Below are positions 1 to 37,010 of a stretch of 64,000 nt of DNA, piece after piece. The stretch's first letter is position 1. The number at the start of each line of letters is the position of its first letter. The stretch is taken from NCBI RefSeq assembly GCF_056746865.1, contig NZ_CM163382.1. One strand, given 5' to 3'. The notes below the pieces were generated by a model. That model did no database searches. It was not told where the DNA came from and saw nothing but the letters and a program-made list of their open reading frames with translations. A program made the position numbers and the translations under genes.

Positions 1-718
1 GTGCTTCCGCCTGGAGGTAACGCCGTCCGTCAGTTTTGACCTCACATTTCATGCGATGGTTGCCACTCCAGCCCAGATGTACGGCCCACACCTCGCCCTG
101 CTGTTCTGAGAAACCGGGGGCACCGGCAATCAGTGCCGGAAAATGCTCATGGGACGTGCGGCCCCGGCGGTTCTCCAGCACAAAACCGTCATGTGTGAGA
201 CGGACCCTGTGCGGCTGAAACTCACGAGTCCAGCGTCCGTGGAAGGCCATGACTTCCTCTGCCCTTTCAGCCACAGGGAGCGTGATGGCGAAGCGGTTCA
301 CCTGCCAGTCCCCTTCACGGAGGTTCGTCAGGGCATGACGCATCTTCAGCACACCGGACGATGTCAGCACCAGTTCACTGACCATGCGCAGACCCGCCAC
401 TGCATCCTCACTGGTCAGGGTGAGTGATTCTCCGGCCTGTACCACGCTGATGGTACGGAACACAGGGGACGCATCCAGCCCGTTGCGGTGTCCCTCCAGC
501 CCCGGCGAGCCAAAAAGTCCCGCGCCGTTTTCGGCCATCAGCGTCAGTGGGGTGTCGGTATCCAGACGACCATTCGCAACCGGCCTTTCCAGGCTGATAC
601 AGTCATCCGGTGAAAAGTGTTTCAGGGTGGATCCCCACCAGACAATCTCTGCATACGGGTGGGTTTTAATAATCAGGTCTGAGTGGGGACTGGTCAGCCT
701 GCGGTACATCGGTTCCAT
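1..718 (-). CDS. alpha-galactosidase-like protein (RafA-like), 5' portion only; runs off the left window edge
   Basis: Open frame on the minus strand from ATG at 716-718 (translation MEPMYRRLTSPHSDLIIKTHPYAEIVWWG...) with GGAG about 8 nt upstream, translated by hand and open to position 1. Not in the ORF track because it has no stop in the window. Family assignment is from context (LacI-type repressor plus twin operators directly upstream) and an RRGRTSHEHFP-type motif recalled from GH36 enzymes. Confidence 0.5.
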   Translation of the reverse strand, partial: MEPMYRRLTSPHSDLIIKTHPYAEIVWWGSTLKHFSPDDCISLERPVANGRLDTDTPLTLMAENGAGLFGSPGLEGHRNGLDASPVFRTISVVQAGESLTLTSEDAVAGLRMVSELVLTSSGVLKMRHALTNLREGDWQVNRFAITLPVAERAEEVMAFHGRWTREFQPHRVRLTHDGFVLENRRGRTSHEHFPALIAGAPGFSEQQGEVWAVHLGWSGNHRMKCEVKTDGRRYLQAEA

Positions 719-755
719 AAGACATCTCCGTTTTCGGGTATGCCTTACTGTTGAT

Positions 756-790
756 CCGAATCGTTTCGGATAGCAACCGAAACGATTCGA
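756..790. promoter_or_regulatory. twin palindromic operator-like sites (ccgaatcgtttcgg / ccgaaacgattcga) between the repressor gene and the alpha-galactosidase start
   Basis: Two 14-bp near-palindromes at 756-769 and 777-790 that are reverse complements of each other (13/14), separated by 7 bp, 38-70 bp upstream of the ATG at 718. Confidence 0.55.
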
Positions 791-811
791 ATTTGTGAGC
801 GGGATTAAAAA

Positions 812-1822
812 TCAGGCGGAGGGAGCAAGCGTTGTCTTGCCAGGATGAAATTCCGGCTGCCAGAGTACTTGTAGCATTTCAGGTGAAACATTCGTGACCA
901 GCTGGCGTATCATGTCGTCAATCTGACGACCGACGCGATGTCGTGTTGACTGAAGAACTGCAGCCACATCCTGTTCAATAATACTGTCCTGCGGCAGACC
1001 ATCATAAACCACAAGAGAGACGGCATCCTCTCCGGACAGATGACCGGATAACTGCAGCGACATGGCCGCGCCATCACCGATCAGGTCACTGTCGGTAATA
1101 ATGGCCGTCGGGGGAAGCGGAAGTGACATTAACTCAGTCACTGCCTGGAAACCTGAGCGTCGGGTGGGAGAGACCCGGCGTAGCCAGGTCTCAGGCAGAC
1201 CATGTTCACTCAGGGCATCGCGCCATCCCTGACGTCGTGCAGTGACATAGGCACGGGAGTTGTCCTCACTCAGCAGGGCAATTCGCTGATGGCCCAGGGC
1301 AATCAGGTGCTGTGTGGCCTGCCAGGTTCCTGCATGGTTATCAAAGTCAAACCAGGCACAGGGAAGACCGGACGGCACCTGACCGAGTGCCAGAAACGGA
1401 ATACCGGCCTCCTGCAGGTGTGTAAGACGCGGGTCATTATCCATCGTGTGCGCCACGATAAGGGCATCAACCCGGCGGCTTTCGACCAGACGCATATAGC
1501 TGTGGCTGTCAGCCCGTTCATCATCGGCTATCAGCAGTAAGTCAATATCATGGCGGGCCAGTTCCCGGCTGATACAACTGACCATATCCACAAACACACT
1601 ACTGCTGAACAGTACAGCATGTTCAGGGAAGACCAGGCCGACCGCATCGGTTTTACCGGTTTTGAGACGTCTTGCCAGGGTATTCGGGCGATAACCACGA
1701 CGCCGAGCTTCCGCTTCTACACGTGCACGGGTCGAAGCGGAAACGTCCGAAAATCCGCCAAGCGCCCGGCTGACTGTGGTGACAGAGATCCCGAGTTCGG
1801 CGGCGATAGCCTTGAGTGACAT
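812..1822 (-). CDS. LacI-family transcriptional repressor (RafR-like), 336 aa
   Basis: ORF 812..1822; N-terminal LacI-type HTH (LKAIAAELGISVTTVSRAL); AGGAG 7 nt upstream of the ATG. Confidence 0.75.
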   Translation of the reverse strand: MSLKAIAAELGISVTTVSRALGGFSDVSASTRARVEAEARRRGYRPNTLARRLKTGKTDAVGLVFPEHAVLFSSSVFVDMVSCISRELARHDIDLLLIADDERADSHSYMRLVESRRVDALIVAHTMDNDPRLTHLQEAGIPFLALGQVPSGLPCAWFDFDNHAGTWQATQHLIALGHQRIALLSEDNSRAYVTARRQGWRDALSEHGLPETWLRRVSPTRRSGFQAVTELMSLPLPPTAIITDSDLIGDGAAMSLQLSGHLSGEDAVSLVVYDGLPQDSIIEQDVAAVLQSTRHRVGRQIDDMIRQLVTNVSPEMLQVLWQPEFHPGKTTLAPSA

Positions 1823-2156
1823 ATTTTCTCCTGCGGATAACTGAACAGCCCTGTCCCTGATGCGGGTGATCCGGGCAACAAACCTGACAGAGACGCCTGC
1901 ATAAGTGGTCGCGCTGTACCAGTATGAGCCTCCATCATCCTGATTTGTGTATTAACTTTCAATACCGGAGGACGATTTGATTACCGGTTGTTAGCAGGAG
2001 TGCGAATATTAGACCGACGGTGGAGATCTAAGACTCAGTGAGCATAGCGATACACTATATTACTGTAATTAAGCCAGTAAACTTCCTGTTCACTGGCTTA
2101 AACGCTAATGATGTATGCAGTTGAACAAGCTTTTAAACTAATGATTAATTGATATA

Positions 2157-3245
2157 TAGACTGGCCCCCTGAATCTCCAGACAATCAATATCACTTAAAT
2201 AAGTGATAGTCTTAATACTAGTTTCTAGACTAGTCATTGGAGAATAGATGATTGATGTCTTAGGGCCGGAGAAACGCAGACGGCGTACTACACAGGAAAA
2301 GATCGCTATTGTTCAGCAGAGCTTTGAACCGGGAATGACGGTCTCCCTTGTTGCCCGGGGATGGGGAGTAAGCTTAGTCAGCCGTTGTCTCCGGGTGTCG
2401 CGTGCGCAGTTGCACGTCATTCTCAGACGAACCGATGACTGGAAAGATGGTCGCCGCAGCCGTCACTCAGATGATACGGATGTGCTTCTCCGTATACACC
2501 ATGTTATCGGAGAGCTGCCCACGTATGGTTATCGTCGGGTATGGGCGCTGCTTCGCAGACAGGCCGAACTTGATGGTATGCCTGCTATCAATGCCAAACG
2601 TGTTTACCGGATCATGCGCCAGAATGCGCTGTTGCTTGAGCGAAAAACCGCTGTACCGCCATCGAAACGGGCACATACTGGCAAAGTGGCCGTGAAAGAA
2701 AGCAATCAACGATGGTGCTCTGACGGGTTCGAGTTCCGCTGTGATAACGGAGAAAAACTGGGGGTCACGTTCGCGCTGGACTGCTGTGACCGTGAGGCAC
2801 TGCACTGGGCGGTCACTACGGGCGGCTTCGACAGTGAAACAGTACAGGACGTCATGCTGGGAGCGGTGGAACGCCGCTTCGGCAGCGAGCTTCCGACATC
2901 TCCAGTGGAGTGGCTGACGGATAATGGTTCATGCTACCGGGCTAATGAAACACGCCAGTTCGCCCGGATGCTGGGACTTGAACCGAAGAACACGGCGGTG
3001 CGGAGTCCGGAGAGTAACGGCATAGCAGAGAGCTTCGTGAAAACGATAAAGCGTGATTACATCAGTATCATGCCCAAACCAGACGGGTTAACGGCAGCAA
3101 AGAACCTTGCAGAGGCGTTCGAGCATTATAACGAATGGCATCCGCATAGTGCACTGGGTTATCGCTCGCCACGGGAATATCTACGGCAGCGGGCCAGTAA
3201 TGGGTTAAGTGATAACAGGTGTCTGGAAATATAGGGGCAAATCCA
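2157..3245 (+). mobile_element. IS2 derivative with an internal deletion of about 242 bp (1089 bp here against about 1331 bp for intact IS2); no 5-bp target-site duplication
   Basis: Left end TAGACTGGCCCCCTGAATCTCCAGACAA at 2157 and right end GGGGCAAATCCA ending at 3245 match the IS2 termini as I recall them. Flanks gatata / atggcg are not a direct repeat. Confidence 0.85.
2248..3234 (+). CDS. IS2 transposase, in-frame fusion of the first ~37 codons of orfA (InsC) to orfB (InsD) created by the internal deletion; 328 aa
   Basis: ORF begins [37 protein letters not shown] (InsC N-terminus) and continues [20 protein letters not shown]... (InsD). The junction lies at a GCCCGG motif; the full identity of the short repeat on the two sides is from the remembered IS2 sequence. 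Confidence 0.8.
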
Positions 3246-3440
3246 ATGGCGCAGATACGCTTGCGGATCGATACCATTCAGACAGCAGGTCCGTTCACTA
3301 CCGTAATCGCTGCCGAAGAACACATTGATTGCCCCTCAATAATCCTGCCGTCAACGTCAAAATTGCTGGTCGGGCTCGACTTATTTAATTGTGTAAACAG
3401 GGCCTCTCAGCGAAAGGCCCTTATGCATCACCTGACGTCG

Positions 3441-4007
3441 TTAAAAGTCACTACACCCAAGATGACGTTCAATGGCACCATGCGATTCAATGTAAGCCTG
3501 GGCCGTCTGTTCCAGTACACCAGGCTCAGCGTTGTATGTGTTAGCTGCATCAAATACCAACGACAGCACTTCAGGATACACAACCAGATGTGTAATGGAG
3601 TTATCTTCACCCAATACTTTTCCCCACGCCTGCTCAATCAGATTTCTGAGAGCCACCACCTCACGACTCTTACACCAGACATCGTTATTAAGTAGCAGTA
3701 CCATAAGATAAGGAGTGGTATCGTTAGCCACAGCTTCCCTACTCCAGAGATAATATAAAGGGGCGGGCTCAACAGATTTATCTTTACGTCGCTTGCACTG
3801 CAAATATTCAGAAATTAGTCTATGCAGTTCACCAGTAAAATCAGCCATCAGAGAGGGAATTGCCTTGTTCATACCTGGGCAAGGTATTAATTTAAATTGT
3901 AATAATTTAATTTTAGGATGTGTAGCTGCAGCCCGATACAGAGTTGCAAGGACATACTTTTGCCAGAGGGCGTTACAGGAAAGCTTAACGTTTGATTCTG
4001 TATACAT
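3441..4007 (-). CDS. hypothetical protein, 188 aa, co-transcribed with the upstream Gp2-like gene (27-bp gap)
   Basis: ORF 3441..4007; AAGGTG 8 nt upstream of the ATG; no recognisable motif. Confidence 0.5.
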   Translation of the reverse strand: MYTESNVKLSCNALWQKYVLATLYRAAATHPKIKLLQFKLIPCPGMNKAIPSLMADFTGELHRLISEYLQCKRRKDKSVEPAPLYYLWSREAVANDTTPYLMVLLLNNDVWCKSREVVALRNLIEQAWGKVLGEDNSITHLVVYPEVLSLVFDAANTYNAEPGVLEQTAQAYIESHGAIERHLGCSDF

Positions 4008-4034
4008 AATAAATCACCTTACAGTTACAATAGG

Positions 4035-4649
4035 TCAAAAACCGCTGTAGCCAAAGTTACGCTGGCCTGATGCTTTAGTGTCGAGCTTCGTCAGATAATC
4101 CAGACGTGCCAATAAGCGCTGATATTGCTCAGGGAAATCAGGATCGTTAATATCCAGGATGTAACGTCCATTAGCAGGGAAATGAACTAGTCCCTGGTGA
4201 TCTTCCAGTTCTAACCCTAAGGCACTGTACCAGGCTCCGGTAATTAACCCTCTCAGGGTGTCAGAGCGCTCATAGTCTCCCAGGTGGTAATAGGCGTCTT
4301 TGTTAAAAAAAAGGCAGACGTGATAATGACATTTAAAGGACTGCGTATATTCTTTCGCCCAGATAATACAAACCGACGTTGCGTAGGTGCGTTTGCCTTG
4401 TTGTTTTTTACGGTGTTGATCTGCATTAATTTTCGCATTCAGCGAGTTACGGAAACGAGATATCTCTCCGGGACTCAGGTTAGGAAAACAGGTAATGGTA
4501 TCCCCGTTGTCAATCACGGGAGGATAATGGAGATCCACCCGTATTGCCGTTATTCTGGGATGTTTCTGGAAGAGGTTATTCACCTGGTTTCTTATTTTTA
4601 ACCCGTGAGCCTCATGACATTCACCGTAAAGAGTTTCAATCGTAATCAT
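4035..4649 (-). CDS. YagK/YfjJ-type (inovirus Gp2-like) protein with an HUH-type motif, 204 aa
   Basis: ORF 4035..4649; motif KCHYHVCLFF (H-hydrophobic-H) followed by tyrosines (YYHLGDY); AAGGA upstream. Family call is from memory of similar proteins in P4-like cryptic elements. Confidence 0.55.
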   Translation of the reverse strand: MITIETLYGECHEAHGLKIRNQVNNLFQKHPRITAIRVDLHYPPVIDNGDTITCFPNLSPGEISRFRNSLNAKINADQHRKKQQGKRTYATSVCIIWAKEYTQSFKCHYHVCLFFNKDAYYHLGDYERSDTLRGLITGAWYSALGLELEDHQGLVHFPANGRYILDINDPDFPEQYQRLLARLDYLTKLDTKASGQRNFGYSGF

Positions 4650-5030
4650 GTTAATATTCCTTTTGCTTTCAGAGATAAGCTAATAGTTAACCTACCCAAT
4701 ACACAACAGAAGCAGATATTAATATTCGTATCAGTAGTTCCCAGAGGGATATATAACCCTCTGGGCGTCAATTAAGAAAAACGCTACTGCCTATTGTTAC
4801 ATTAGAGAACAGGATGATGTTACACAGTTACATTAGAACGTTCTAAAACATTAAACAGAGTTATGATCTACACACAACTAATTATTTGGTATCAGAATAC
4901 CATTAGCTCTATTAGTACATCATATCCATCATTACACATATACTATACATCACAGATATAATATATATTACCTATCCAACGCACATGTATTTATAACTCC
5001 ATTGCCAATAGCTACAAGGACTATAAAATG

Positions 5031-5591
5031 TTACTCTGCAGTTAGATCAACAATACCTTTATCCCAGTGTCTTTTTACAGTGGATAAACTGATGCTTAAT
5101 TTTCTGGCTGTTTGTGACTGACTGAACCCCTGCAATTTCAACTGTCTGATATTTTTACTATGAATACTCCCTTCTTTCCTTCCTGGTTTTCTTTTAATTT
5201 TCCGGATACTGATGTCGGGAATTTTTCCTCTAATATCTGTAGGTAAAATCATCCCGGTGAGTACCACAGGAATATCATCACCATCCGGCAACTCTGATGA
5301 CGTAAAAAAGCAAATATTAATACCTTGTCTGATACTTAAAGATAAAACCTCCTGTATTTTTTCCGGCGTATTACCAAAACAAGTTAACGATTTAGTAATC
5401 AGAATATCACCCCTTTGCATATCCTGCGTCAGGAGTCGAACTAACCGTTTTCTGTCTGCCAGAGTATAATCCGGGCGACCCAATTCGCCTGTTAACTGCA
5501 ATAGTGGTTCTTTAAAATATCTCTGAATCATGGATTTTAAGCGATTAAGTTTTGACCATTTTTCAGAGTCTATGTATGCAAAACTCGCCAT
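5031..5591 (-). CDS. serine-recombinase (resolvase)-like DNA-binding protein, probably catalytically inactive, 186 aa
   Basis: ORF 5031..5591. GDILITKSLTCFGNT aligns by eye to the resolvase GDxLVVxxLDRLGRS motif but lacks the two Arg; N-terminus FAYIDSEK instead of YxRVSTxxQ; C-terminal HTH (TARKLSISLSTVKRHW). Confidence 0.5.
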   Translation of the reverse strand: MASFAYIDSEKWSKLNRLKSMIQRYFKEPLLQLTGELGRPDYTLADRKRLVRLLTQDMQRGDILITKSLTCFGNTPEKIQEVLSLSIRQGINICFFTSSELPDGDDIPVVLTGMILPTDIRGKIPDISIRKIKRKPGRKEGSIHSKNIRQLKLQGFSQSQTARKLSISLSTVKRHWDKGIVDLTAE

Positions 5592-5812
5592 AATGCCTCA
5601 AACTGGTGTCATGAATTAATTATTGAACCTGTTTTTTCCTGAGTCGCATTACTCTTTTCTAAGGGAGGCTCTCCAGATACATCGGAAAAGTACTCGATAA
5701 AAGAGTTGGCCACTCCCGGGTAATGATTGCTCTCTTTAACCTCAGAAAGCGGTTTCTGTTCATCATTTACACCACGATTTCTGGGTTATGAATAAATCTA
5801 CGCGGGCCATAA

Positions 5813-6559
5813 TCATTCATCTTCAAATGGGTTAATAATAATAACATCTCCACCTGTTCTGGAACTTTGTGAAACTTCCTCTGTTCTCAGAACAGGCACT
5901 ATTACAGCCTTATTATTGATATAAAAAATCGGAATATGAAAAGTACAAAATCCTGTACTACGAATCTGATGTCGCCTCACTGTTTCTTTCGTACCATACT
6001 CAATCAACTCATCTATCGGCAGGCAAACTGAATTGCAAAAGTCAAAAAAATAATCCCCAAAAACACTGGTTTTAATCAGAATGGTTTTATAAAACCCTCC
6101 TGCACGATTCAGGGTATGGGAAACTTTTCTGTTCGTGTAAATACAAATTGCCTTCTCAACTTTATAATATTCCAGCATTAAGGTCGCATTCTCTTTAATT
6201 CCCTTTTTCTCTGCAACTCCCATAGCATTTCTGGTGCTTTCATGAGGAAATATCTTTCTATCGAGAACATCATATTCATATTTGATATGCGATTTATAAA
6301 TGCTATGAAAAAACTCTCCTTTTGTTATTTCAGGCTTTGTCCGTTGCACAAATGGTTCCTCATTAAAAAACTGACGTAGCTTATCCTCTATATCAGTTAT
6401 AGCAGCAATATTTTCATTTATCCTGTTTAAAACAGGAGCCCCTAGCTTTAAACACTCTTTAATCGCTGCTGAAAATGAGCATTTTTTTAAATGCTGATAC
6501 TTTTTAATTACATCAGCTTCATATGTTTCTGCAAGAGAGAAAGAGACACGTTTCATCAT
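5813..6559 (-). CDS. hypothetical protein, 248 aa; N-terminal ~45 aa resemble a ribbon-helix-helix DNA-binding fold, C-terminal ~200 aa unassigned
   Basis: ORF 5813..6559; strong RBS AAGGAG 5 nt before ATGATG; AT-rich coding sequence; N-terminus KRVSFSLAETYEADVIKKYQ...FSAAIKECLKLG has a strand-helix-helix pattern. Confidence 0.55.
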   Translation of the reverse strand: MMKRVSFSLAETYEADVIKKYQHLKKCSFSAAIKECLKLGAPVLNRINENIAAITDIEDKLRQFFNEEPFVQRTKPEITKGEFFHSIYKSHIKYEYDVLDRKIFPHESTRNAMGVAEKKGIKENATLMLEYYKVEKAICIYTNRKVSHTLNRAGGFYKTILIKTSVFGDYFFDFCNSVCLPIDELIEYGTKETVRRHQIRSTGFCTFHIPIFYINNKAVIVPVLRTEEVSQSSRTGGDVIIINPFEDE

Positions 6560-6621
6560 GAAACTCCTTTTTAATTATAAAATTAAAATATAGAAATATA
6601 TATTATTCTGATACTATAAGG

Positions 6622-6849
6622 TTAATACTGACTAATCCACCACAATAGATCACTTAATAACCACCCACAGGATTTCTTTCCAATAGTTTTACGTGGCGGG
6701 AATTTTCCTTCACGTTCCAGTTTCCAGGCTTGTGAACGAGAAATAGACGTAATTTTCTGGCGTTCCTTTTCTCGTACCAGTCTGTCACAGGTGTATCCAT
6801 AGATCTTCAAAATTGATAAACGGTTCTCATCTCTTAACGGCTTCCACAT
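6622..6849 (-). CDS. AlpA-family prophage transcriptional regulator / excisionase-like protein, 75 aa
   Basis: ORF 6622..6849; SRSQAWKLEREGKFPPRKTIGKKSCGWLLSDLLWW resembles the AlpA HTH core; AGGAGA RBS. Confidence 0.65.
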   Translation of the reverse strand: MWKPLRDENRLSILKIYGYTCDRLVREKERQKITSISRSQAWKLEREGKFPPRKTIGKKSCGWLLSDLLWWISQY

Positions 6850-7628
6850 ATTGCTCTCCTTATATATTCATGATTTTCAGATTGTATATGCATGTGAGCT
6901 GCTCAAATCACTACATCTATCTGTAGTGGTATGCTGTTGAACAGCACCAGCAACTCACGAGCAAAACAATACATTTGCACAACCAAGAAATCAAATTGCG
7001 AGAAATGATTTAATTAACTGACTTCTAATAACACAATAACAACAAAGAAAGTCACAATATAAAAATAACTTAAACAATGCTTTTTGGTATACAAAATAAA
7101 AATCAAAATCACAATATTCGTAGGTTATTTTATGCAGACAAAAACAAAAAAAATCTTGTTATAATCTATGATATCAAGAGGAGGGGTAGTGACCAAAAAT
7201 TCTCCCCAGAAAAGCCCCCACAACATTAGTTTGAAAACGTGACGAAGTTCACAAAATTATCTTCTGGCGATAATAGAACTTGTAAGAGGGAGTTGATTTT
7301 TGCCAACTTTCTAAAGCTAAAGTGCAGACAAAAGATAATAATTGAATGAAAACGATACATATTTTCAGATGAAAGTGACGTGACTGTAGAGGGCTATAAC
7401 CGTAAAATCATTTGCGTCCTGAGCAATATGCAACAAAAGGGAATGCTCGTAAAAAAATCAGGAATAAACGCTAAGGATATCGTATTAGATTCAGCATCGT
7501 ATAATGCCACTGCATAACTGATTCCCATTTCGTAGAGGCTGTTAACTCTGTATCAATGTCCTGACAAAGGACTGTATCAAGTTTCTCTACTGGAAACAGC
7601 TATGCAATAGACGGAAGAATTTAACATT

Positions 7629-9233
7629 ATGGTAACTAAAAAGGTAAAAACAAACCACCCGTACTATCGTGTTTTATCCGGCACCTCCATGCCGTTTCCC
7701 CACATACATGAAGCTGTTTCCGAACAGTTGCTTCTACTCATTTTCAAAGCACGCAGATTGTATCTGGATCCAGAATATCGTCCTTGGTTTGATGAACAAC
7801 ATCGGATTCTCTCGGCATTACGCGCTAACACAAAACTCCAAAGTATTTTAGAGAAAAACAGAGAGAACTACTCCATAAGTGAGACCGATAATCCACTATC
7901 TAAAGATCTGTATGCTGCTTTTCAGGTTATGTGCCATTTATACAATGGTTTTGATAACAGACTCGTCAGCCTGAAAACCTGGGGAGATATGAACAGGGAA
8001 CCAACAGCAAAATTTGTCGGCCAAAATAGTGGTGGCTGGAAAACACCTGAGATGGAAGAATTCGTCAGAAACGATTTGTTCAATATTCTGACAGATTGTA
8101 AAGCTCATTGCTCACCACTTCCCGCTCTGGTTCGACAAGGATATTGCCATCAGGATCTTTCTGTTGCGCACTCATGTACTAAAGAATTACTGGAACAACT
8201 GAACCGATACCATCAAATTGATGAATCAGCGATACTTGCCAGAACCCTTGGTTTGGCTATTAACAACTGCTATCACTCAGAAACAGAGATTCCTGAATGG
8301 CTTTCTCCTTTTGAAAATGAATACAAAAGTCCCTGGAATTGTGAGAAACCAGATACTAACGATGTGAGTAAACTTAGAAAACAATTGCTAACAATCGGGC
8401 GTACAGAATTCGTGGACAAAATGTTTTCGCTAGCCAACAAAAATGCAACAAAGATAATATATGATGGATACGTTAAACTTTATGCTCTGGAAATATATGA
8501 ATGGTTAAATAAATTAGTGCAATATTTTAAAGGAAATGATTTTATTCGTTACACCTGGAAGTTCACAACAATTATTTCCGATGAAAGTGACACGATTGAA
8601 AACACCACCGCATGGGAAAAAGACTATTGTCAAATCACTATACAGCGTGATGAACTTCTGAAACTGATTTATACCAATACCCTGCAGGATGCAGCAATGA
8701 ATCTTGCTGATTGCCTGCAACAGGCATACACAGAACCGTTAAAAATGGAAATAAATTATCCAGGAATAAACATTGATGCAAAAGAGCGTAAAATTAGAAA
8801 ATCTATTGAATTCAGGAGCGAACTGAATAACTTCACAAACATCATGAAACAACTGGAAATATTTGAAAAATGGTATAACGCCAATAAAATTCTGTTGGTA
8901 AGTAACAAAAAGATACGTACAGAAAAGATTGACGTGAATATTCGTCTTGCAGGACTAAAAGGCTATGATCTGAATGAAGGTATACCTGATGGTCAGGGAC
9001 GCAGAATTAAAGATGGTGTAAATGAACTTGTCAAGGCAGATGGCAGTCTACAACTTCCACAAGATATCAGTGACACTTCGCTTAACCGTTACCGTCAAGC
9101 AGTTCAACACATTATTAAGGATGAGATCGACACGTTGCTGATAGCACAGAGGGAAAAAAATAAAATAAATCCATATAGCGAAGATAGATACTCGATACGA
9201 CCTTTATGGGGAAAATGTCTGGTCGAACAGTAA
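7629..9233 (+). CDS. hypothetical protein, 534 aa, no domain recognisable by eye; integrase-proximal cargo
   Basis: ORF 7629..9233; GGAAG upstream of the ATG; AT-rich; preceded by a 780-bp AT-rich non-coding region. Confidence 0.6.
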   Translation: MVTKKVKTNHPYYRVLSGTSMPFPHIHEAVSEQLLLLIFKARRLYLDPEYRPWFDEQHRILSALRANTKLQSILEKNRENYSISETDNPLSKDLYAAFQVMCHLYNGFDNRLVSLKTWGDMNREPTAKFVGQNSGGWKTPEMEEFVRNDLFNILTDCKAHCSPLPALVRQGYCHQDLSVAHSCTKELLEQLNRYHQIDESAILARTLGLAINNCYHSETEIPEWLSPFENEYKSPWNCEKPDTNDVSKLRKQLLTIGRTEFVDKMFSLANKNATKIIYDGYVKLYALEIYEWLNKLVQYFKGNDFIRYTWKFTTIISDESDTIENTTAWEKDYCQITIQRDELLKLIYTNTLQDAAMNLADCLQQAYTEPLKMEINYPGINIDAKERKIRKSIEFRSELNNFTNIMKQLEIFEKWYNANKILLVSNKKIRTEKIDVNIRLAGLKGYDLNEGIPDGQGRRIKDGVNELVKADGSLQLPQDISDTSLNRYRQAVQHIIKDEIDTLLIAQREKNKINPYSEDRYSIRPLWGKCLVEQ

Positions 9234-9315
9234 CTCACTGAGAAAGGGGATAGCAGTTCGCTATCCCCAAAGGAGACTTTCCAGCAAGATCTCAAAAAAT
9301 GAGACACTCAGCAAA

Positions 9316-33974: not shown

Positions 33975-34160
33975 ACCTGCAAAGGGGAGTAACTTCATTG
34001 CCGGTCGATCGTCATTACGATGTGTGAAAAACCACATCCGGTCACCGGGCAACCCGAAAGGAATACGCAGACGTATTCCTTTTTTGTTGTAAGTGAGACC
34101 TTGCCGGAAGGCGAGGTCTATGCATAAAAAGCAGCGGCTGACGTCTTCCGACGTTGGCCG
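33975..34160 (+). ncRNA. alx 5' leader: yybP-ykoY-type (Mn/pH-responsive) riboswitch element
   Basis: Conserved aaaGGGGAGUAac core plus several hairpins (for example ccggaaggcgaggtc...cggctgacgtcttccg) immediately upstream of alx. Boundaries are approximate. Confidence 0.6.
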
Positions 34161-34184
34161 TTTTTTTATGTGTAAGGAACTTCT

Positions 34185-35150
34185 ATGAATACTGTCGGCA
34201 CGCCGTTGCTATGGGGCGGATTCGCTGTTGTTGTCGCCATTATGCTGGCTATCGACCTGTTGTTGCAGGGGCGTCGTGGGGCACATGGCATGACCATGAA
34301 ACAGGCTGCGGCCTGGTCGCTGGTCTGGGTGACGCTGTCGTTACTGTTTAACGCCGCTTTCTGGTGGTATCTGGTGCAAACCGAAGGTCGCGCCGTTGCC
34401 GATCCACAGGCACTGGCCTTTCTCACGGGTTATCTGATTGAGAAATCGCTGGCGGTCGATAACGTCTTTGTCTGGCTGATGTTGTTCAGCTATTTCTCTG
34501 TTCCGGCGGCGTTACAACGGCGCGTGCTGGTGTATGGCGTGCTCGGGGCGATTGTTCTGCGTACCATCATGATCTTCACTGGCAGCTGGCTGATTTCGCA
34601 GTTCGACTGGATCCTGTATATCTTCGGTGCCTTCCTGCTGTTTACCGGCGTGAAGATGGCGCTGGCCCATGAAGATGAATCAGGCATTGGCGACAAGCCG
34701 CTGGTGCGCTGGCTACGCGGTCATTTGCGCATGACCGACACCATCGACAACGAGCATTTCTTTGTGCGTAAGAATGGCTTGCTGTATGCCACGCCGCTGA
34801 TGCTGGTGCTGATTCTGGTGGAATTGAGCGACGTGATTTTCGCCGTGGATAGCATTCCGGCTATCTTCGCCGTGACCACTGACCCGTTCATTGTGCTGAC
34901 CTCAAACCTGTTTGCGATCCTCGGCCTGCGTGCGATGTATTTCCTGCTGGCGGGCGTAGCAGAACGTTTCTCGATGCTCAAATATGGCCTGGCGGTGATT
35001 CTGGTGTTTATCGGTATCAAGATGCTGATTGTCGACTTCTACCATATTCCAATCGCCGTCTCGCTGGGCGTGGTGTTTGGCATTCTGGTGATGACGTTTA
35101 TTATCAACGCCTGGGTGAATTATCGGCATGATAAGCAGCGGGGAGAATGA
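34185..35150 (+). CDS. alx: TerC-family inner-membrane protein Alx, 321 aa
   Basis: ORF 34185..35150; synteny and length. Confidence 0.9.
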
Positions 35151-35765
35151 TTCGCTGTATATTAAGCCATTACTAGAGATAACTCATTCCAGACAAAGGT
35201 GAGCTATTAATTATGTAATCGGCTTATAGCTCTTTACAAAAAGACCGCACGGGTGTTGGTGGCGTCAAAATCGCCGAAGCGTTCCCTGGAGGCCGGGGCG
35301 ACGCGCATGGATGCGCGGCGAGGGCGCATCTTACAGGGACGTTCCCTTGCGCCCGACCCGGTAGCCGCAAGGGATAAGCTGAGGGAACCGCGCAGCGGCG
35401 ATTTTGTTCGCCAGAGCCTGGGGGTGCAGGGGGCGGCGGCGATTGGCCGCCCCCTGCGCGCTCCCTGCGGCATTGACTTTATATGGCATAGCACATTAAA
35501 GGAGCGCAACCGTTCTCATATTCCAAATAGTTTTGCCCATATGTTATCTAATCAGCCTTAGTAGCCAGTCCTTCCCTCTGTTTATGTCAAATAAATGTAA
35601 CCATGAAGTTGCAAAATATGACCTCTCTTTAAAATCCAGCATTTTTCGCTTCCCGAAGCTGTAACTTTCCTTATACTCGACCTTGCAAACACTTTGTTAC
35701 ATCCTGAAAGATGCGTCGACAGAACGCACCAGGGATGTGCGACAACACAATGAAAGGATCGAAAA

Positions 35766-37010
35766 ATGACTACGCAACGTTCACCGGGGCTATTCCGGCG
35801 TCTGGCTCATGGCAGCCTGGTAAAACAAATCCTGGTCGGCCTTGTTCTGGGGATTCTTCTGGCATGGATCTCAAAACCCGCGGCGGAAGCTGTTGGTCTG
35901 TTAGGTACTTTGTTCGTCGGCGCACTGAAAGCCGTTGCCCCCATCCTGGTGTTGATGCTGGTAATGGCGTCTATTGCTAACCACCAGCACGGGCAGAAAA
36001 CCAATATCCGTCCTATTTTGTTCCTCTATCTACTGGGCACCTTCTCTGCTGCTCTGGCCGCAGTAGTCTTCAGCTTTGCCTTCCCTTCTACCCTGCACTT
36101 GTCCAGTAGCGCGGGTGATATTTCGCCGCCGTCAGGCATTGTCGAAGTGATGCGCGGGCTGGTAATGAGCATGGTTTCCAACCCCATCGACGCGCTGCTG
36201 AAAGGTAACTACATCGGGATTCTGGTGTGGGCAATTGGCCTCGGTTTCGCACTGCGTCACGGTAACGAGACCACCAAAAACCTGGTCAACGATATGTCGA
36301 ATGCCGTCACCTTTATGGTGAAACTGGTCATTCGCTTCGCACCGATCGGTATTTTTGGTCTGGTTTCTTCTACCCTGGCAACCACCGGTTTCTCCACACT
36401 GTGGGGCTACGCGCAACTGCTGGTCGTGCTGGTTGGCTGTATGCTGCTGGTGGCGCTGGTGGTTAACCCCTTGCTGGTGTGGTGGAAAATTCGTCGTAAC
36501 CCGTTCCCGCTGGTGCTGCTGTGCCTGCGCGAAAGCGGCGTGTACGCCTTCTTCACCCGCAGCTCTGCGGCGAACATTCCGGTGAATATGGCGCTGTGTG
36601 AAAAGCTGAATCTGGATCGCGATACCTATTCCGTTTCTATTCCGCTGGGTGCCACCATCAATATGGCGGGCGCAGCAATCACCATTACCGTGTTGACGCT
36701 GGCTGCGGTTAATACGCTGGGTATTCCGGTCGATCTGCCCACAGCGCTGCTGTTGAGCGTAGTGGCTTCTCTGTGTGCCTGTGGCGCATCCGGCGTGGCG
36801 GGGGGTTCTCTGCTGCTGATCCCACTGGCCTGTAATATGTTCGGTATTTCGAACGATATCGCCATGCAGGTGGTTGCCGTCGGCTTTATCATCGGCGTAT
36901 TGCAGGACTCTTGCGAAACCGCGCTGAACTCTTCAACTGACGTGCTGTTCACTGCGGCAGCTTGCCAGGCAGAAGACGATCGTCTGGCAAATAGCGCCCT
37001 GCGTAATTAA
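35766..37010 (+). CDS. sstT: serine/threonine:Na+ symporter, 414 aa
   Basis: ORF 35766..37010; length and synteny. Confidence 0.9.

What the first reader, a model, noticed from the sequence alone, without database searches (positions are those of the whole stretch)
35230..35560. GC-rich structured intergenic element upstream of sstT
This ~330-bp non-coding stretch is unusually GC-rich and contains a perfect 11-bp stem hairpin (cagggggcggc-ggcgattg-gccgccccctg, about 35427-35456) plus further Arg/Gly-rich pseudo-ORFs on both strands that look like composition artefacts. It is not an obvious REP element or terminator and could be a remnant insertion or a structured RNA.
Basis: seen in the sequence. 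Interest (0 to 1): 0.3.

Follow-up and report, generated by a model that had tools for sequence, protein, structure and literature searches.

The report
Extra copy of the RRS repeat
The GC-rich stretch between alx and sstT is a third, strain-variable copy of the E. coli "replication risk sequence" (RRS/TRIP1), a strongly self-folding non-coding repeat already shown to make replication forks leave single-strand gaps; here it also turns out to share its fold with the orphan Rfam motif TwoAYGGAY.

Summary
Window 35245-35510 is 62-71% G+C, non-coding, and contains a perfect 12-bp hairpin (35426-35457).

It is not a new element. It is a full-length copy of the RRS / TRIP1 repeat (Pham et al. 2023, 2024). 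It is about 87% identical to the K-12 copies at aqpZ-lysO and dusC-yohP and carries the published G4 motif exactly (35420-35439).

The alx-sstT spacer has two alleles: 1659 of 5426 complete E. coli genomes carry the RRS, and 3737 carry an unrelated filler, as K-12 does. In this copy the G-rich strand lies on the leading-strand template, the weaker orientation for gap formation.

New points:
- A 73-pair fold is supported by compensatory changes, and by 130 G·T against 14 A·C pairs, so the G-rich strand is the one that folds.
- The compensatory changes include the hairpin that overlaps the "G4".
- The fold matches the Rfam motif TwoAYGGAY. This copy scores 33 bits, below the cutoff of 43. Divergent sister copies score 49.2.
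- At the two canonical sites, 18% (lysO) and 37% (dusC) of genomes carry the RRS inverted relative to K-12.

No test here separates a DNA-level role from an RNA-level one.

The parts
35145..35581 (.). Strain-variable cassette of about 440 bp. It replaces the roughly 220-bp K-12-type filler of the alx-sstT spacer and includes the last two codons and the stop codon of alx.
   Evidence: Alignment with the K-12 spacer. Homology stops at ...CAGCGGGG (35144) and resumes at TTTATGTCAAA (about 35582). The RRS allele is in 1659 genomes and the K-12 allele in 3737, of 5426.
35245..35510 (+). RRS / TRIP1 element, full conserved unit of 266 nt. The published 222-bp repeat corresponds roughly to 35254-35475.
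   Evidence: Covariance model R1 scores 290.3 bits, E = 2e-87, over model positions 1-265. Megablast gives 87.5% identity to the K-12 dusC-yohP copy.
35254..35423 (+). TwoAYGGAY-like multi-helix domain, closed by a long P1/P3 helix (GGTGGCGTCAAAATCGCCG ... CGGCGATTTTGTTCGCCAG).
   Evidence: Rfam RF01731 matches 35254-35419 at 33.1 bits (cutoff 43), E = 0.008, over the full model. Helices 1-11 are listed.
35299..35320 (+). Hairpin 1, with terminal loop CAUGGAUG (AYGGAY = AUGGAU).
   Evidence: Helix 8: 9 pairs, 3 with compensatory changes. The window stem CGCGC/GCGCG corresponds to CCCAC/GUGGG in K-12.
35322..35354 (+). Hairpin 2, with loop ACAGGGACG (AGGGAC, a variant of AYGGAY). It is AUGGAU, AUGGAC or ACGGAC in other copies.
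   Evidence: Helices 9-10. Loop variants are visible. The same ACAGGGACGU loop occurs in the original TwoAYGGAY alignment from Psychromonas.
35388..35398 (+). Small hairpin CCGCGCAGCGG inside the junction.
   Evidence: Helix 11: 4 pairs, 1 with a compensatory change.
35420..35439 (+). Published RRS 'G4' motif GGGGGTGCAGGGGGCGGCGG. Its G-runs are 5, 5, 2 and 2 long.
   Evidence: One exact match in the window, 0 expected by chance. The motif is quoted in PMC11194060.
35426..35457 (.). Perfect 12-bp G·C-rich hairpin (GCAGGGGGCGGC / GCCGCCCCCTGC, 8-nt loop). Its 5' arm is the 3' two-thirds of the G4 motif.
   Evidence: Helix 12: 12 pairs, 4 with compensatory changes, for example GGAGGAGGC/GTCCTCC in L006 and L052 and GAGGG/CCCTC in L011 and L044.
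35458..35507 (+). Terminal hairpin GCGCUCCC ... GGAGCGC with a variable loop of about 36 nt. It lies largely outside the published 222 bp.
   Evidence: Helix 13: 8 pairs, 2 with compensatory changes. It is kept as CCGUUCAC...GUGAACGG in the divergent copy in L026.
35253..35561 (+). Spurious 102-aa ORF. A near-identical ORF is annotated 'hypothetical protein' WP_023148592.1 in strain M21170.
   Evidence: Single-base indels shift the frame between copies, and the K-12 copies have stops in all three + frames.
34185..35150 (+). alx (TerC-family Mn exporter), the upstream neighbour.
35766..37010 (+). sstT (serine/threonine transporter), the downstream neighbour. Its upstream region from about 35582 is shared with K-12.

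Best explanation
Window 35245-35510 is an additional, full-length copy of the enterobacterial RRS (Replication Risk Sequence, = TRIP1 of Rudd 1999). It is carried on a ~440-bp cassette that is one of two alleles of the alx-sstT spacer.

Shown here: it encodes no protein. Its G-rich (+) strand is under selection to fold into a defined structure with three parts: a TwoAYGGAY-type multi-helix domain, a perfect G·C hairpin that overlaps the G-run motif, and a terminal hairpin.

Inferred from experiments on the K-12 copies: when the duplex is unwound at a replication fork, the element folds as single-stranded DNA. It blocks the lagging-strand polymerase and leaves a transient post-replication gap that binds SSB and RecA and affects chromosome topology.

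Inferred for this copy: the G-rich strand is the leading-strand template, the 'G4-lead' orientation. The weaker C-rich strand is therefore the one exposed on the lagging-strand template. This copy should be at most a weaker, less frequent gap trigger than the lysO and dusC copies, which are both in K-12 orientation in a strain (118UI) whose alx-sstT spacer is identical to the window's.
For: Identity:
- 87.5% identity to the K-12 dusC-yohP repeat, with repeats in 5425 of 5426 genomes.
- The family model scores this copy at 290 bits.
- The published G4 motif is present exactly.
- PMC11194060 and PMC10287960 place RRS at lysO and dusC, equate it with TRIP1, and say that additional RRS exist.

Fold:
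- 73 pairs, 99.0% of cells paired, 18 pairs with compensatory changes, and 0 of 500 shuffles reach the observed values. Slid controls give 38-46% paired.
- 130 G·T against 14 A·C pairs, so the + strand is the folding strand.
- z = -5.9 as ssDNA.

Non-coding: frames are not conserved between copies.

Orientation:
- Strain 118UI has a spacer 100% identical to the window's. Its record starts at thrL on the + strand, and alx and the RRS are on + at 3.716 of 5.206 Mb, which is the left replichore.
- GC skew of the window's + strand is -0.021 over 63 kb. It is +0.026 and +0.030 on the RRS sense strand at 118UI lysO and dusC.
- In 118UI, the lysO copy is on + and the dusC copy on -, as in K-12.

Mechanism, from the literature:
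- RRS triggers gaps wherever it is placed in lagging orientation, and inverted RRS give no RecA or SSB peak in vivo.
- In vitro, the G4-lead orientation still gives gaps in about 66% of encounters, and they are smaller.
Against: - No experiment exists for this copy. Its position, about 1.65 Mb from dif in K-12 coordinates, and its orientation both differ from the pair that defines RRS function.
- 69% of E. coli genomes lack this copy, so it is dispensable.
- Natural strains carry the canonical copies inverted in 18% (lysO) and 37% (dusC) of genomes. That weakens the idea that a particular orientation is required.
- Conserved G·U-type pairs and the match to an Rfam 'RNA' motif fit an RNA reading at least as well.
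- The G-runs (5, 5, 2, 2) cannot form a canonical three-tetrad G4. The compensatory changes show selection on the competing hairpin, so the published 'G4' mechanism may be incomplete.
Confidence: 0.6

Rival explanations
1. The element is a gene for a structured non-coding RNA of the TwoAYGGAY class. The conserved fold serves an RNA function, for example binding a dimeric protein through the two AYGGAY loops. The effects on replication are a by-product of a very stable G+C-rich structure.
For: - Rfam RF01731 matches the full model at 33.1 bits, E = 0.008. The K-12 copy scores 30.9 bits.
- The RRS model finds divergent sister copies at E = 1e-28 to 6e-31. The cores of two of them pass the TwoAYGGAY cutoff, at 49.2 against 43 bits.
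- Loop sequences are identical to members of the original alignment.
- There are 18 covarying pairs, and wobble pairs are strongly one-stranded, 130 against 14. The alignment consensus folds at -111 kcal/mol on + and -90 on -.
- Weinberg 2010 rated the motif a probable RNA that is not cis-regulatory.
Against: - No convincing promoter upstream and no terminator downstream.
- No ncRNA is annotated at the K-12 copies.
- Orientation relative to neighbouring genes varies between strains.
- Strand-specific folding selection is equally expected for ssDNA on one template strand.
- Direct experiments show a DNA-level activity in vitro with purified replisomes.
Confidence: 0.2
2. At this site the element is a functionless passenger. 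It would be a copy of a selfish or recombination-spread intergenic repeat, comparable to ERIC or BIME, that landed in the alx-sstT spacer and persists neutrally.
For: - Presence/absence dimorphism, 1659 against 3737 genomes.
- Copy number is 2-6 places in E. coli and up to 13 in a Klebsiella chromosome.
- Tandem copies occur in L012, and head-to-head pairs in L025 and L026.
- Both orientations occur at the same locus.
- Klebsiella copies sit directly beside REP sequences.
- The K-12 efeU-putP copy is internally deleted.
Against: - No terminal inverted repeats with a target-site duplication, and no associated transposase in any flank examined.
- No phage matches, and the 'plasmid' matches are chromosomes or chromosomal fragments.
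- The alx-sstT copy is only 87-90% identical to the other copies yet at least 95% conserved among the genomes that hold it. It is therefore old and maintained, with every helix intact.
Confidence: 0.17
3. It encodes the ~100-aa Arg/Gly-rich 'hypothetical protein' that NCBI's PGAP pipeline annotates over it in some genomes.
For: An open frame of 102 aa (35253-35561) exists in the window. CDS are annotated over copies in M21170, on the EC16 plasmid and in K. aerogenes.
Against: - Single-base indels switch the frame 1-5 times between copies.
- The K-12 copies have 2-4 stops in every + frame.
- Substitutions are compensatory in stems rather than synonymous.
- A high G+C content yields long open frames by chance.
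Confidence: 0.01
4. It is the intrinsic terminator or a REP-type 3' stabiliser of alx.
For: It lies 95 bp downstream of the alx stop codon, on the same strand, and contains very stable hairpins.
Against: - No T-run follows the strong hairpin. The only terminator-like call is a 5-pair stem at 35454-35470.
- K-12 and 69% of strains have a different sequence here.
- The same element sits antisense to its neighbours at other loci.
Confidence: 0.02

Closest known systems
RRS (Replication Risk Sequence) of E. coli K-12 at aqpZ-lysO and dusC-yohP; TRIP1 of Rudd 1999 (PMC10287960, PMC11194060, PMC13308219)
   Same: The sequence is homologous over the whole published 222 bp, at about 87% identity. The G4 motif is identical, the G+C content matches, and all helices are present. 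It is intergenic and non-coding.
   Different: - The locus differs: alx-sstT, in the middle of the left replichore rather than flanking Ter.
- It is present in only 31% of complete genomes.
- The G-rich strand is on the leading-strand template.
- Hairpin 1 has a different, compensated stem (GACGCGC/GCGCGGC).
- The conserved unit defined here is 266 nt and includes a terminal hairpin that lies largely outside the published 222 bp.
TwoAYGGAY RNA motif (Rfam RF01731; Weinberg et al. 2010, PMC2864571)
   Same: - A long closing helix encloses two adjacent hairpins.
- The hairpin loops are CAUGGAUG and ACAGGGACG, and both loop sequences occur in the original alignment.
- Several copies occur per genome, with no fixed position relative to genes.
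- Sister copies of the RRS pass the family cutoff.
   Different: - This copy scores 33.1 bits, below the cutoff of 43.
- It is much richer in G+C than the Psychromonas, gut and Clostridiales members.
- It carries two extra 3' modules that are not in the Rfam model: the G·C hairpin with G-runs, and the terminal hairpin.
- An RNA has never been shown for either family.
Neisseria gonorrhoeae pilE G4 (cited in PMC11194060)
   Same: A structure-forming G-rich sequence on one strand that provokes a gap or nick during replication.
   Different: - The Neisseria element is a canonical three-tetrad G4 that depends on a cis sRNA transcript. Here the G-runs are 5, 5, 2 and 2 and lie in a covarying hairpin.
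- There is no sequence relationship.
- This comparison rests on the paper's statement and on my own knowledge, and was not tested here.
ERIC/IRU, BIME/REP and Box C intergenic repeats of enterobacteria
   Same: Interspersed, intergenic, structure-forming, polymorphic between strains in presence and orientation, and sometimes adjacent to one another.
   Different: There is no sequence similarity. RRS has far fewer copies, is far longer, has a multi-helix fold with covariation, and has an experimentally shown replication phenotype. These are resemblances from my own knowledge, apart from the REP adjacency seen.

Membership tests
RRS / TRIP1 | Sequence homology to K-12 RRS-lysO and RRS-dusC over the 222-bp repeat | tested here: met
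   87.5% identity over 284 bp, E = 1e-85. The K-12 match lies between dusC and yohP. Blastn finds both K-12 copies. The family model scores 290 bits.
RRS / TRIP1 | The G4-forming motif GGGGGTGCAGGGGGCGGCGG on one strand only | tested here: met
   Exact match at 35420-35439 on +, none on -. The motif is quoted.
RRS / TRIP1 | G+C-rich with extensive secondary-structure potential | tested here: met
   G+C is 0.62-0.71. ssDNA minimum free energy is -84.5 kcal/mol, z = -5.9.
RRS / TRIP1 | One of an inverted pair placed symmetrically about 650 kb either side of dif, flanking the Ter macrodomain | tested here: not met
   The site is alx-sstT: 3.24 Mb in K-12 coordinates and 3.716 of 5.206 Mb in 118UI. 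It is a supernumerary copy, and the same genome keeps the lysO and dusC pair. The papers allow 'additional RRS'.
RRS / TRIP1 | [quoted passage not shown] | tested here: not met
   The G-rich strand is the + strand on the left replichore, so it is the leading-strand template. This is inferred from synteny with K-12 and 118UI and from a GC skew of -0.021. oriC and dif were not mapped directly.
RRS / TRIP1 | Triggers post-replication ssDNA gaps with RecA and SSB loading | not testable with these tools
   Needs ssGap-seq or single-molecule replication assays on this copy.
TwoAYGGAY (Rfam RF01731) | Score at or above the Rfam gathering cutoff (43 bits) | tested here: not met
   33.1 bits, E = 0.008. 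Nothing in the whole window reaches any family's gathering score.
TwoAYGGAY (Rfam RF01731) | Two adjacent hairpins whose terminal loops both contain AYGGAY | tested here: inconclusive
   Loop 1 is AUGGAU, which meets the consensus. Loop 2 is AGGGAC, with G instead of Y at position 2. The same variant occurs in seed members, and other RRS copies have AUGGAU, AUGGAC or ACGGAC.
TwoAYGGAY (Rfam RF01731) | Long P1 helix closing the two-hairpin core | tested here: met
   Helices 1-7 enclose the hairpins and are 98-100% paired.
TwoAYGGAY (Rfam RF01731) | Homology to accepted members | tested here: met
   The link is transitive. RRS model R1 matches L026 2166-2429 (106.7 bits, E = 6e-31) and L063 5622-5881 (99.2 bits) over the full model. 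The cores of those two matches score 49.2 bits, above the cutoff of 43.
TwoAYGGAY (Rfam RF01731) | Exists as an RNA | not testable with these tools
   No expression data are available here. No promoter or terminator was predicted.
Canonical G-quadruplex | Four runs of at least 3 G separated by short loops | tested here: not met
   Read directly from the sequence: the runs in 35420-35439 are 5, 5, 2 and 2 long, so only a two-tetrad or bulged G4 is possible. The second long run and both GG runs lie in the 5' arm of a covarying hairpin.
Intrinsic terminator | G+C-rich stem-loop followed directly by a T-run | tested here: not met
   The 12-bp hairpin is followed by GCGCTCCCTGCGG. The scan returned only a 5-pair stem at 35454-35470 with the tail CATTGACTTT, and 2 sites were found against 0.7 expected.

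The most novel reading that the evidence does not exclude
RRS elements and the orphan Rfam motif TwoAYGGAY are one family of structured nucleic-acid elements. On this reading, selection acts on the whole multi-helix fold of the G-rich strand, including the hairpin that overlaps the 'G4', and not on a G-quadruplex as such. The element is a semi-mobile cassette that natural E. coli populations carry in either orientation and at a third site. Either TwoAYGGAY 'RNAs' in Psychromonas, Clostridiales and gut metagenomes are really DNA-level replication-gap elements, or RRS acts through an RNA that nobody has looked for.
Probability: 0.35. Interest if true: 0.7.

Novelty: new member of a known kind. 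Interest (0 to 1): 0.5.

Why it matters
RRS is a recently described class of genomic element (2023-2026), proposed to program single-strand gaps that relieve topological stress near the terminus. The published account rests on three claims: two conserved copies, a fixed orientation, and a G-quadruplex. This window and its relatives bear on all three.

- Nearly a third of sequenced E. coli genomes carry a third full copy in the 'wrong' orientation, far from Ter.
- The canonical copies are naturally inverted in 18% (lysO) and 37% (dusC) of genomes.
- The part of the element called a G4 sits in a hairpin that evolves by compensatory changes.

The link to TwoAYGGAY gives a sixteen-year-old orphan 'RNA' motif its first experimental handle. 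It also extends the search space for RRS-like elements beyond enterobacteria.

For genome annotation, the 'hypothetical protein' CDS drawn over these repeats should be removed.

Tried and rejected
- **Leader with a small ORF.** The 3' end reads AAGGAGCGCAAC, and some copies follow it with ATG and a short ORF. I rejected this reading. GGAGCGC pairs with GCGCUCC in a covarying helix (helix 13). The ATG is absent in the window and in Klebsiella, and the peptides are unrelated.
- **Protein-coding reading.** Rejected, because frames are not conserved.
- **Phage or plasmid origin.** There are no phage matches. The plasmid-collection matches are mislabelled chromosomes or chromosomal fragments.
- **Promoter and terminator scan.** Nothing usable came out of it. 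By eye, the upstream AT-rich leaders show no conserved -35 or -10 boxes.
- **Transposable-element reading (MITE).** The long inverted repeat is internal, being P1 of the fold. I saw no target-site duplication at the K-12 and window junctions and no transposase in the flanks.
- **Local GC skew to orient the Klebsiella copies.** Eleven of 13 were negative on the sense strand. The signs do not flip with strand among four copies lying within 0.6 Mb of one scaffold. Short-flank skew is therefore unreliable, and I draw no conclusion from it.
- **Genome-wide pattern scan.** It was capped at 65 stretches. Most were chance matches in G+C-rich genomes, so it gives only a partial taxonomic picture: Escherichia, Klebsiella, Pseudocitrobacter, Kluyvera and an unnamed Enterobacteriaceae genome.
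- **Literature search by locus names.** It found no sRNA reported at the K-12 copies.

Full report
**1. The observation.**
The stretch is as described. G+C rises to 0.62-0.71 between about 35250 and 35500, against 0.35-0.47 on either side. A perfect inverted repeat, GCAGGGGGCGGC / GCCGCCCCCTGC, lies at 35426-35437 and 35446-35457 with an 8-nt loop. Open frames of 102, 91, 52 and 48 codons overlap on both strands. The neighbours are alx (34185-35150) and sstT (35766-37010). The 266-nt core folds much better than dinucleotide shuffles on either strand, as DNA or RNA, with z between -3.7 and -5.9.

**2. It is a repeat, and a known one.**
A megablast of the spacer against 5426 complete E. coli genomes hit 5425 of them, at 2-6 places each. 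Only 1659 genomes cover the whole spacer. In K-12 the best match, at 87.5% identity, lies between dusC and yohP. Further copies lie between aqpZ and lysO, and between efeU and putP. The efeU-putP copy is internally deleted in K-12.

A literature search on those loci led to Pham et al. (NAR 2023, PMC10287960; NAR 2024, PMC11194060) and a 2026 preprint (PMC13308219). The two K-12 copies are the 'Replication Risk Sequences' RRS-lysO and RRS-dusC, first listed as TRIP1 by Rudd in 1999. Their G4 motif, GGGGGTGCAGGGGGCGGCGG, occurs exactly once in the window, at 35420-35439 on the + strand. A covariance model built from 35 distinct copies scores the window copy (35245-35510) at 290 bits. The element is therefore an additional RRS.

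**3. The locus is dimorphic.**
The K-12 spacer shares only its two ends with the window. Between ...CAGCGGGG, inside the last codons of alx, and TTTATGTCAAA, K-12 has an unrelated filler of about 220 bp, where the window has about 440 bp. The RRS allele is in 1659 genomes and the K-12 allele in 3737, together 99.4% of the collection. Among the genomes that carry it, the alx-sstT copy is at least 95% conserved. It is only 87-90% identical to the other RRS copies, so it is not a recent duplication.

**4. Anatomy and evidence for a selected fold.**
RNAalifold on 35 distinct copies gives 73 pairs in 13 helices. The copies come from Escherichia, Klebsiella, Pseudocitrobacter and an unnamed Enterobacteriaceae genome. 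The fold has three parts:
- a long closing helix around a junction that holds two adjacent hairpins, 35299-35320 (loop CAUGGAUG) and 35322-35354 (loop ACAGGGACG);
- the perfect G·C hairpin;
- a terminal hairpin, GCGCUCCC...GGAGCGC (35458-35507), which lies largely outside the published 222 bp.

The counts support this fold. 99.0% of cells form standard pairs. Eighteen pairs have changes on both sides, against 10.1 ± 1.4 in shuffles. None of 500 shuffles reaches the observed values on three of four measures. Sliding the 3' partners by 1-3 columns drops pairing to 38-46%. The structure was derived from the same alignment, which favours it. Even so, the compensatory changes can be read directly from the sequences. 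In hairpin 1, the window has CGCGC/GCGCG where K-12 has CCCAC/GUGGG.

Wobble pairs are one-sided: 130 G·T against 14 A·C. The G-rich strand is therefore the strand that folds. Four pairs of the G·C hairpin covary, for example GGAGGAGGC/GTCCTCC and GAGGG/CCCTC. So the hairpin, whose 5' arm is most of the 'G4' motif, is itself under selection. The G-runs are 5, 5, 2 and 2 long, which cannot make a canonical three-tetrad quadruplex.

**5. It does not code for a protein.**
Single-base indels shift the frame between copies, and the K-12 copies have stops in every + frame.

**6. Link to TwoAYGGAY.**
Rfam's only notable match is to TwoAYGGAY (RF01731). It covers the full model at 33.1 bits, E = 0.008, below the cutoff of 43. 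The K-12 dusC copy scores 30.9 bits. The link does not rest on that score alone.
- The RRS model finds strongly divergent full-length sister copies, which I call 'RRS-B'. They lie head-to-head beside canonical RRS in Pseudocitrobacter (L026 and L063, 107 and 99 bits), in an Enterobacteriaceae genome (L070 and L069) and in Kluyvera (L062).
- The two-hairpin cores of the L026 and L063 sister copies pass the Rfam cutoff, at 49.2 bits.
- The loops ACAUGGAUGU and ACAGGGACGU occur verbatim in Weinberg's original Psychromonas alignment. That alignment also shows several copies per genome.
- Weinberg noted a very long P1 helix, which matches the RRS closing helix.

The main text of the 2024 RRS paper contains neither 'Rfam' nor 'noncoding'. 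None of the listed papers that contain 'TwoAYGGAY' concerns RRS. I did not search the 2023 paper or the 2026 preprint for these terms. Within the library held here, the connection appears to be unreported.

**7. Orientation.**
Strain 118UI has a spacer 100% identical to the window's. Its record starts at thrL on + as in K-12, and alx with the RRS sits on + at 3.716 of 5.206 Mb, on the left replichore. The window's + strand has negative GC skew, -0.021 over 63 kb. The G-rich strand is therefore the leading-strand template.

In the same genome, the lysO copy (+ at 1.036 Mb) and the dusC copy (- at 2.478 Mb) are oriented as in K-12. Their sense strands have positive flanking skew. According to the papers, an engineered RRS in this orientation gives no RecA or SSB peak in vivo. 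In vitro it still gives smaller gaps in about two-thirds of encounters, through the C-rich strand.

**8. Natural orientation polymorphism.**
At the canonical sites the RRS, with its short AT-rich leader and trailer, is found in either orientation between the same genes.
- At aqpZ-lysO, 4028 genomes have the K-12 arrangement and 983 the inverted one.
- At dusC-yohP, 3314 have the K-12 arrangement and 1999 the inverted one.

All four combinations occur:
- K-12 and 118UI have both copies in K-12 orientation.
- Strain 120899 has the lysO copy inverted (H76 and H88).
- Escherichia sp. E1V33 has the dusC copy inverted.
- Strain E69 has both inverted.

This does not sit easily with a strict requirement for the G-rich strand on the lagging-strand template. 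I did not map oriC and dif in these genomes. The inference assumes that the flanking core genes keep their orientation relative to replication. Flanking skew agrees where it could be checked.

**9. Best explanation and rivals.**
- Identity as an RRS copy is essentially certain.
- The most likely mechanism, by homology with tested copies, is folding of the unwound strand at the fork so that it obstructs lagging-strand synthesis. For this copy, in a weak orientation and dispensable, the effect is probably small. I give the whole statement 0.6.
- The main rival is an RNA-level function of a TwoAYGGAY-type ncRNA (0.2). The fold and wobble asymmetry fit it equally well. No promoter, terminator, annotated RNA or fixed gene context supports it.
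- A neutral passenger copy of a semi-mobile repeat comes next (0.17).
- The protein-coding and terminator readings are effectively excluded.

**10. Novelty and scores.**
The kind of element is known, and the papers already say that extra copies exist. The finding is therefore a new member of a known kind. Four results would interest specialists:
- the alx-sstT allele and its frequency;
- the frequency of natural inversions;
- the covariation-supported fold, including the 'G4' hairpin and a terminal hairpin beyond the published boundary;
- the bridge to TwoAYGGAY.

Interest is 0.5.

Noticed in passing
L010 and L004 (aqpZ-lysO); L008 and L006 (dusC-yohP): The canonical RRS copies occur in both orientations between the same flanking genes. 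At lysO, 4028 genomes have the K-12 arrangement and 983 the inverted one. At dusC the counts are 3314 and 1999, all of 5426 genomes. All four combinations exist.
   Followed up: partly
L026 1868-2134(-) with 2166-2429(+); L063 5320-5586(-) with 5622-5881(+); L070; L069; L062; L025: In Pseudocitrobacter, Kluyvera and an unnamed Enterobacteriaceae genome, a canonical RRS sits head-to-head, about 30-130 bp apart, with a strongly divergent second copy ('RRS-B'). The cores of the L026 and L063 sister copies pass the Rfam TwoAYGGAY cutoff. In such a pair each DNA strand carries one G-rich folding strand.
   Followed up: partly
L012 2057-2321 and 2494-2758; L074-L079; L013: Klebsiella pneumoniae has many copies, with 13 places in one chromosome, including a tandem pair with a 437-bp period. 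Most copies lie directly downstream of a REP-like sequence (GCCGGGTGGCGGCTGCGCCTTACCCGGCCTAC) and share an extended 3' trailer.
   Followed up: no
L009 4855-5005 (K-12 putP-efeU); L005 2506-2770; L007: The 'third partial repeat' of K-12 is an RRS with a clean internal deletion of about 128 bp. It keeps the first ~62 bp and the last ~86 bp. A full-length copy is present at the same site in strain 7_56_38A. The deleted version, with efeUOB-putP, also sits on a 243-kb plasmid of strain EC16.
   Followed up: partly
window 33880-34184 (alx leader): No Rfam family matches the alx 5' leader, even at E up to 10 on a 381-bp slice, and the whole 64-kb window has no match at gathering score. From memory, this leader is the pH-responsive element, a yybP-ykoY-type Mn riboswitch. 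Its absence from the hits is unexplained.
   Followed up: partly
L003 3547-3944 (K-12 alx-sstT spacer): The K-12-type filler that replaces the RRS is itself repetitive, with a median of 6 places per genome for that query. It contains CCCTCTCCC/GGGAGAGGG-type palindromes, possibly Box C-like. It was not identified.
   Followed up: no
window 35142-35150 versus L003 3538-3546: The allele boundary lies inside alx. The predicted C-terminus is ...KQRGE in the window and ...KQRGG in K-12.
   Followed up: no
L002 2109-2411; L007 2120-2422; L011 2426-3007: Automatic annotation places 'hypothetical protein' CDS (WP_023148592.1, WP_001323669.1, VDZ62855.1) over RRS copies. Frames are not conserved, so these are very likely spurious.
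   Followed up: yes
L072 (Bacillus sp.), L061 (Ensifer sp.), L018 (Desulfacinum MAG), L025 ('Proteobacteria' MAG): Short or low-coverage contigs filed under unrelated organisms carry enterobacterial RRS at 95-100% identity. This is probably contamination or mis-binning. L072 looks chimeric, with a lysO-type leader, the alx-sstT-type hairpin 1 and an efeU-type trailer.
   Followed up: no
window 1-12000: G+C falls to 0.40-0.45 in the first ~12 kb of the window, against ~0.52 elsewhere. This may be a horizontally acquired segment.
   Followed up: no
L082 6501-6679 versus L013 and L014: In Klebsiella an RRS sits between the ABC-F ATPase gene ybiT and a GH31 glycosidase gene. In E. coli 118UI the same gene pair is separated by only 180 bp, with no RRS.
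   Followed up: no
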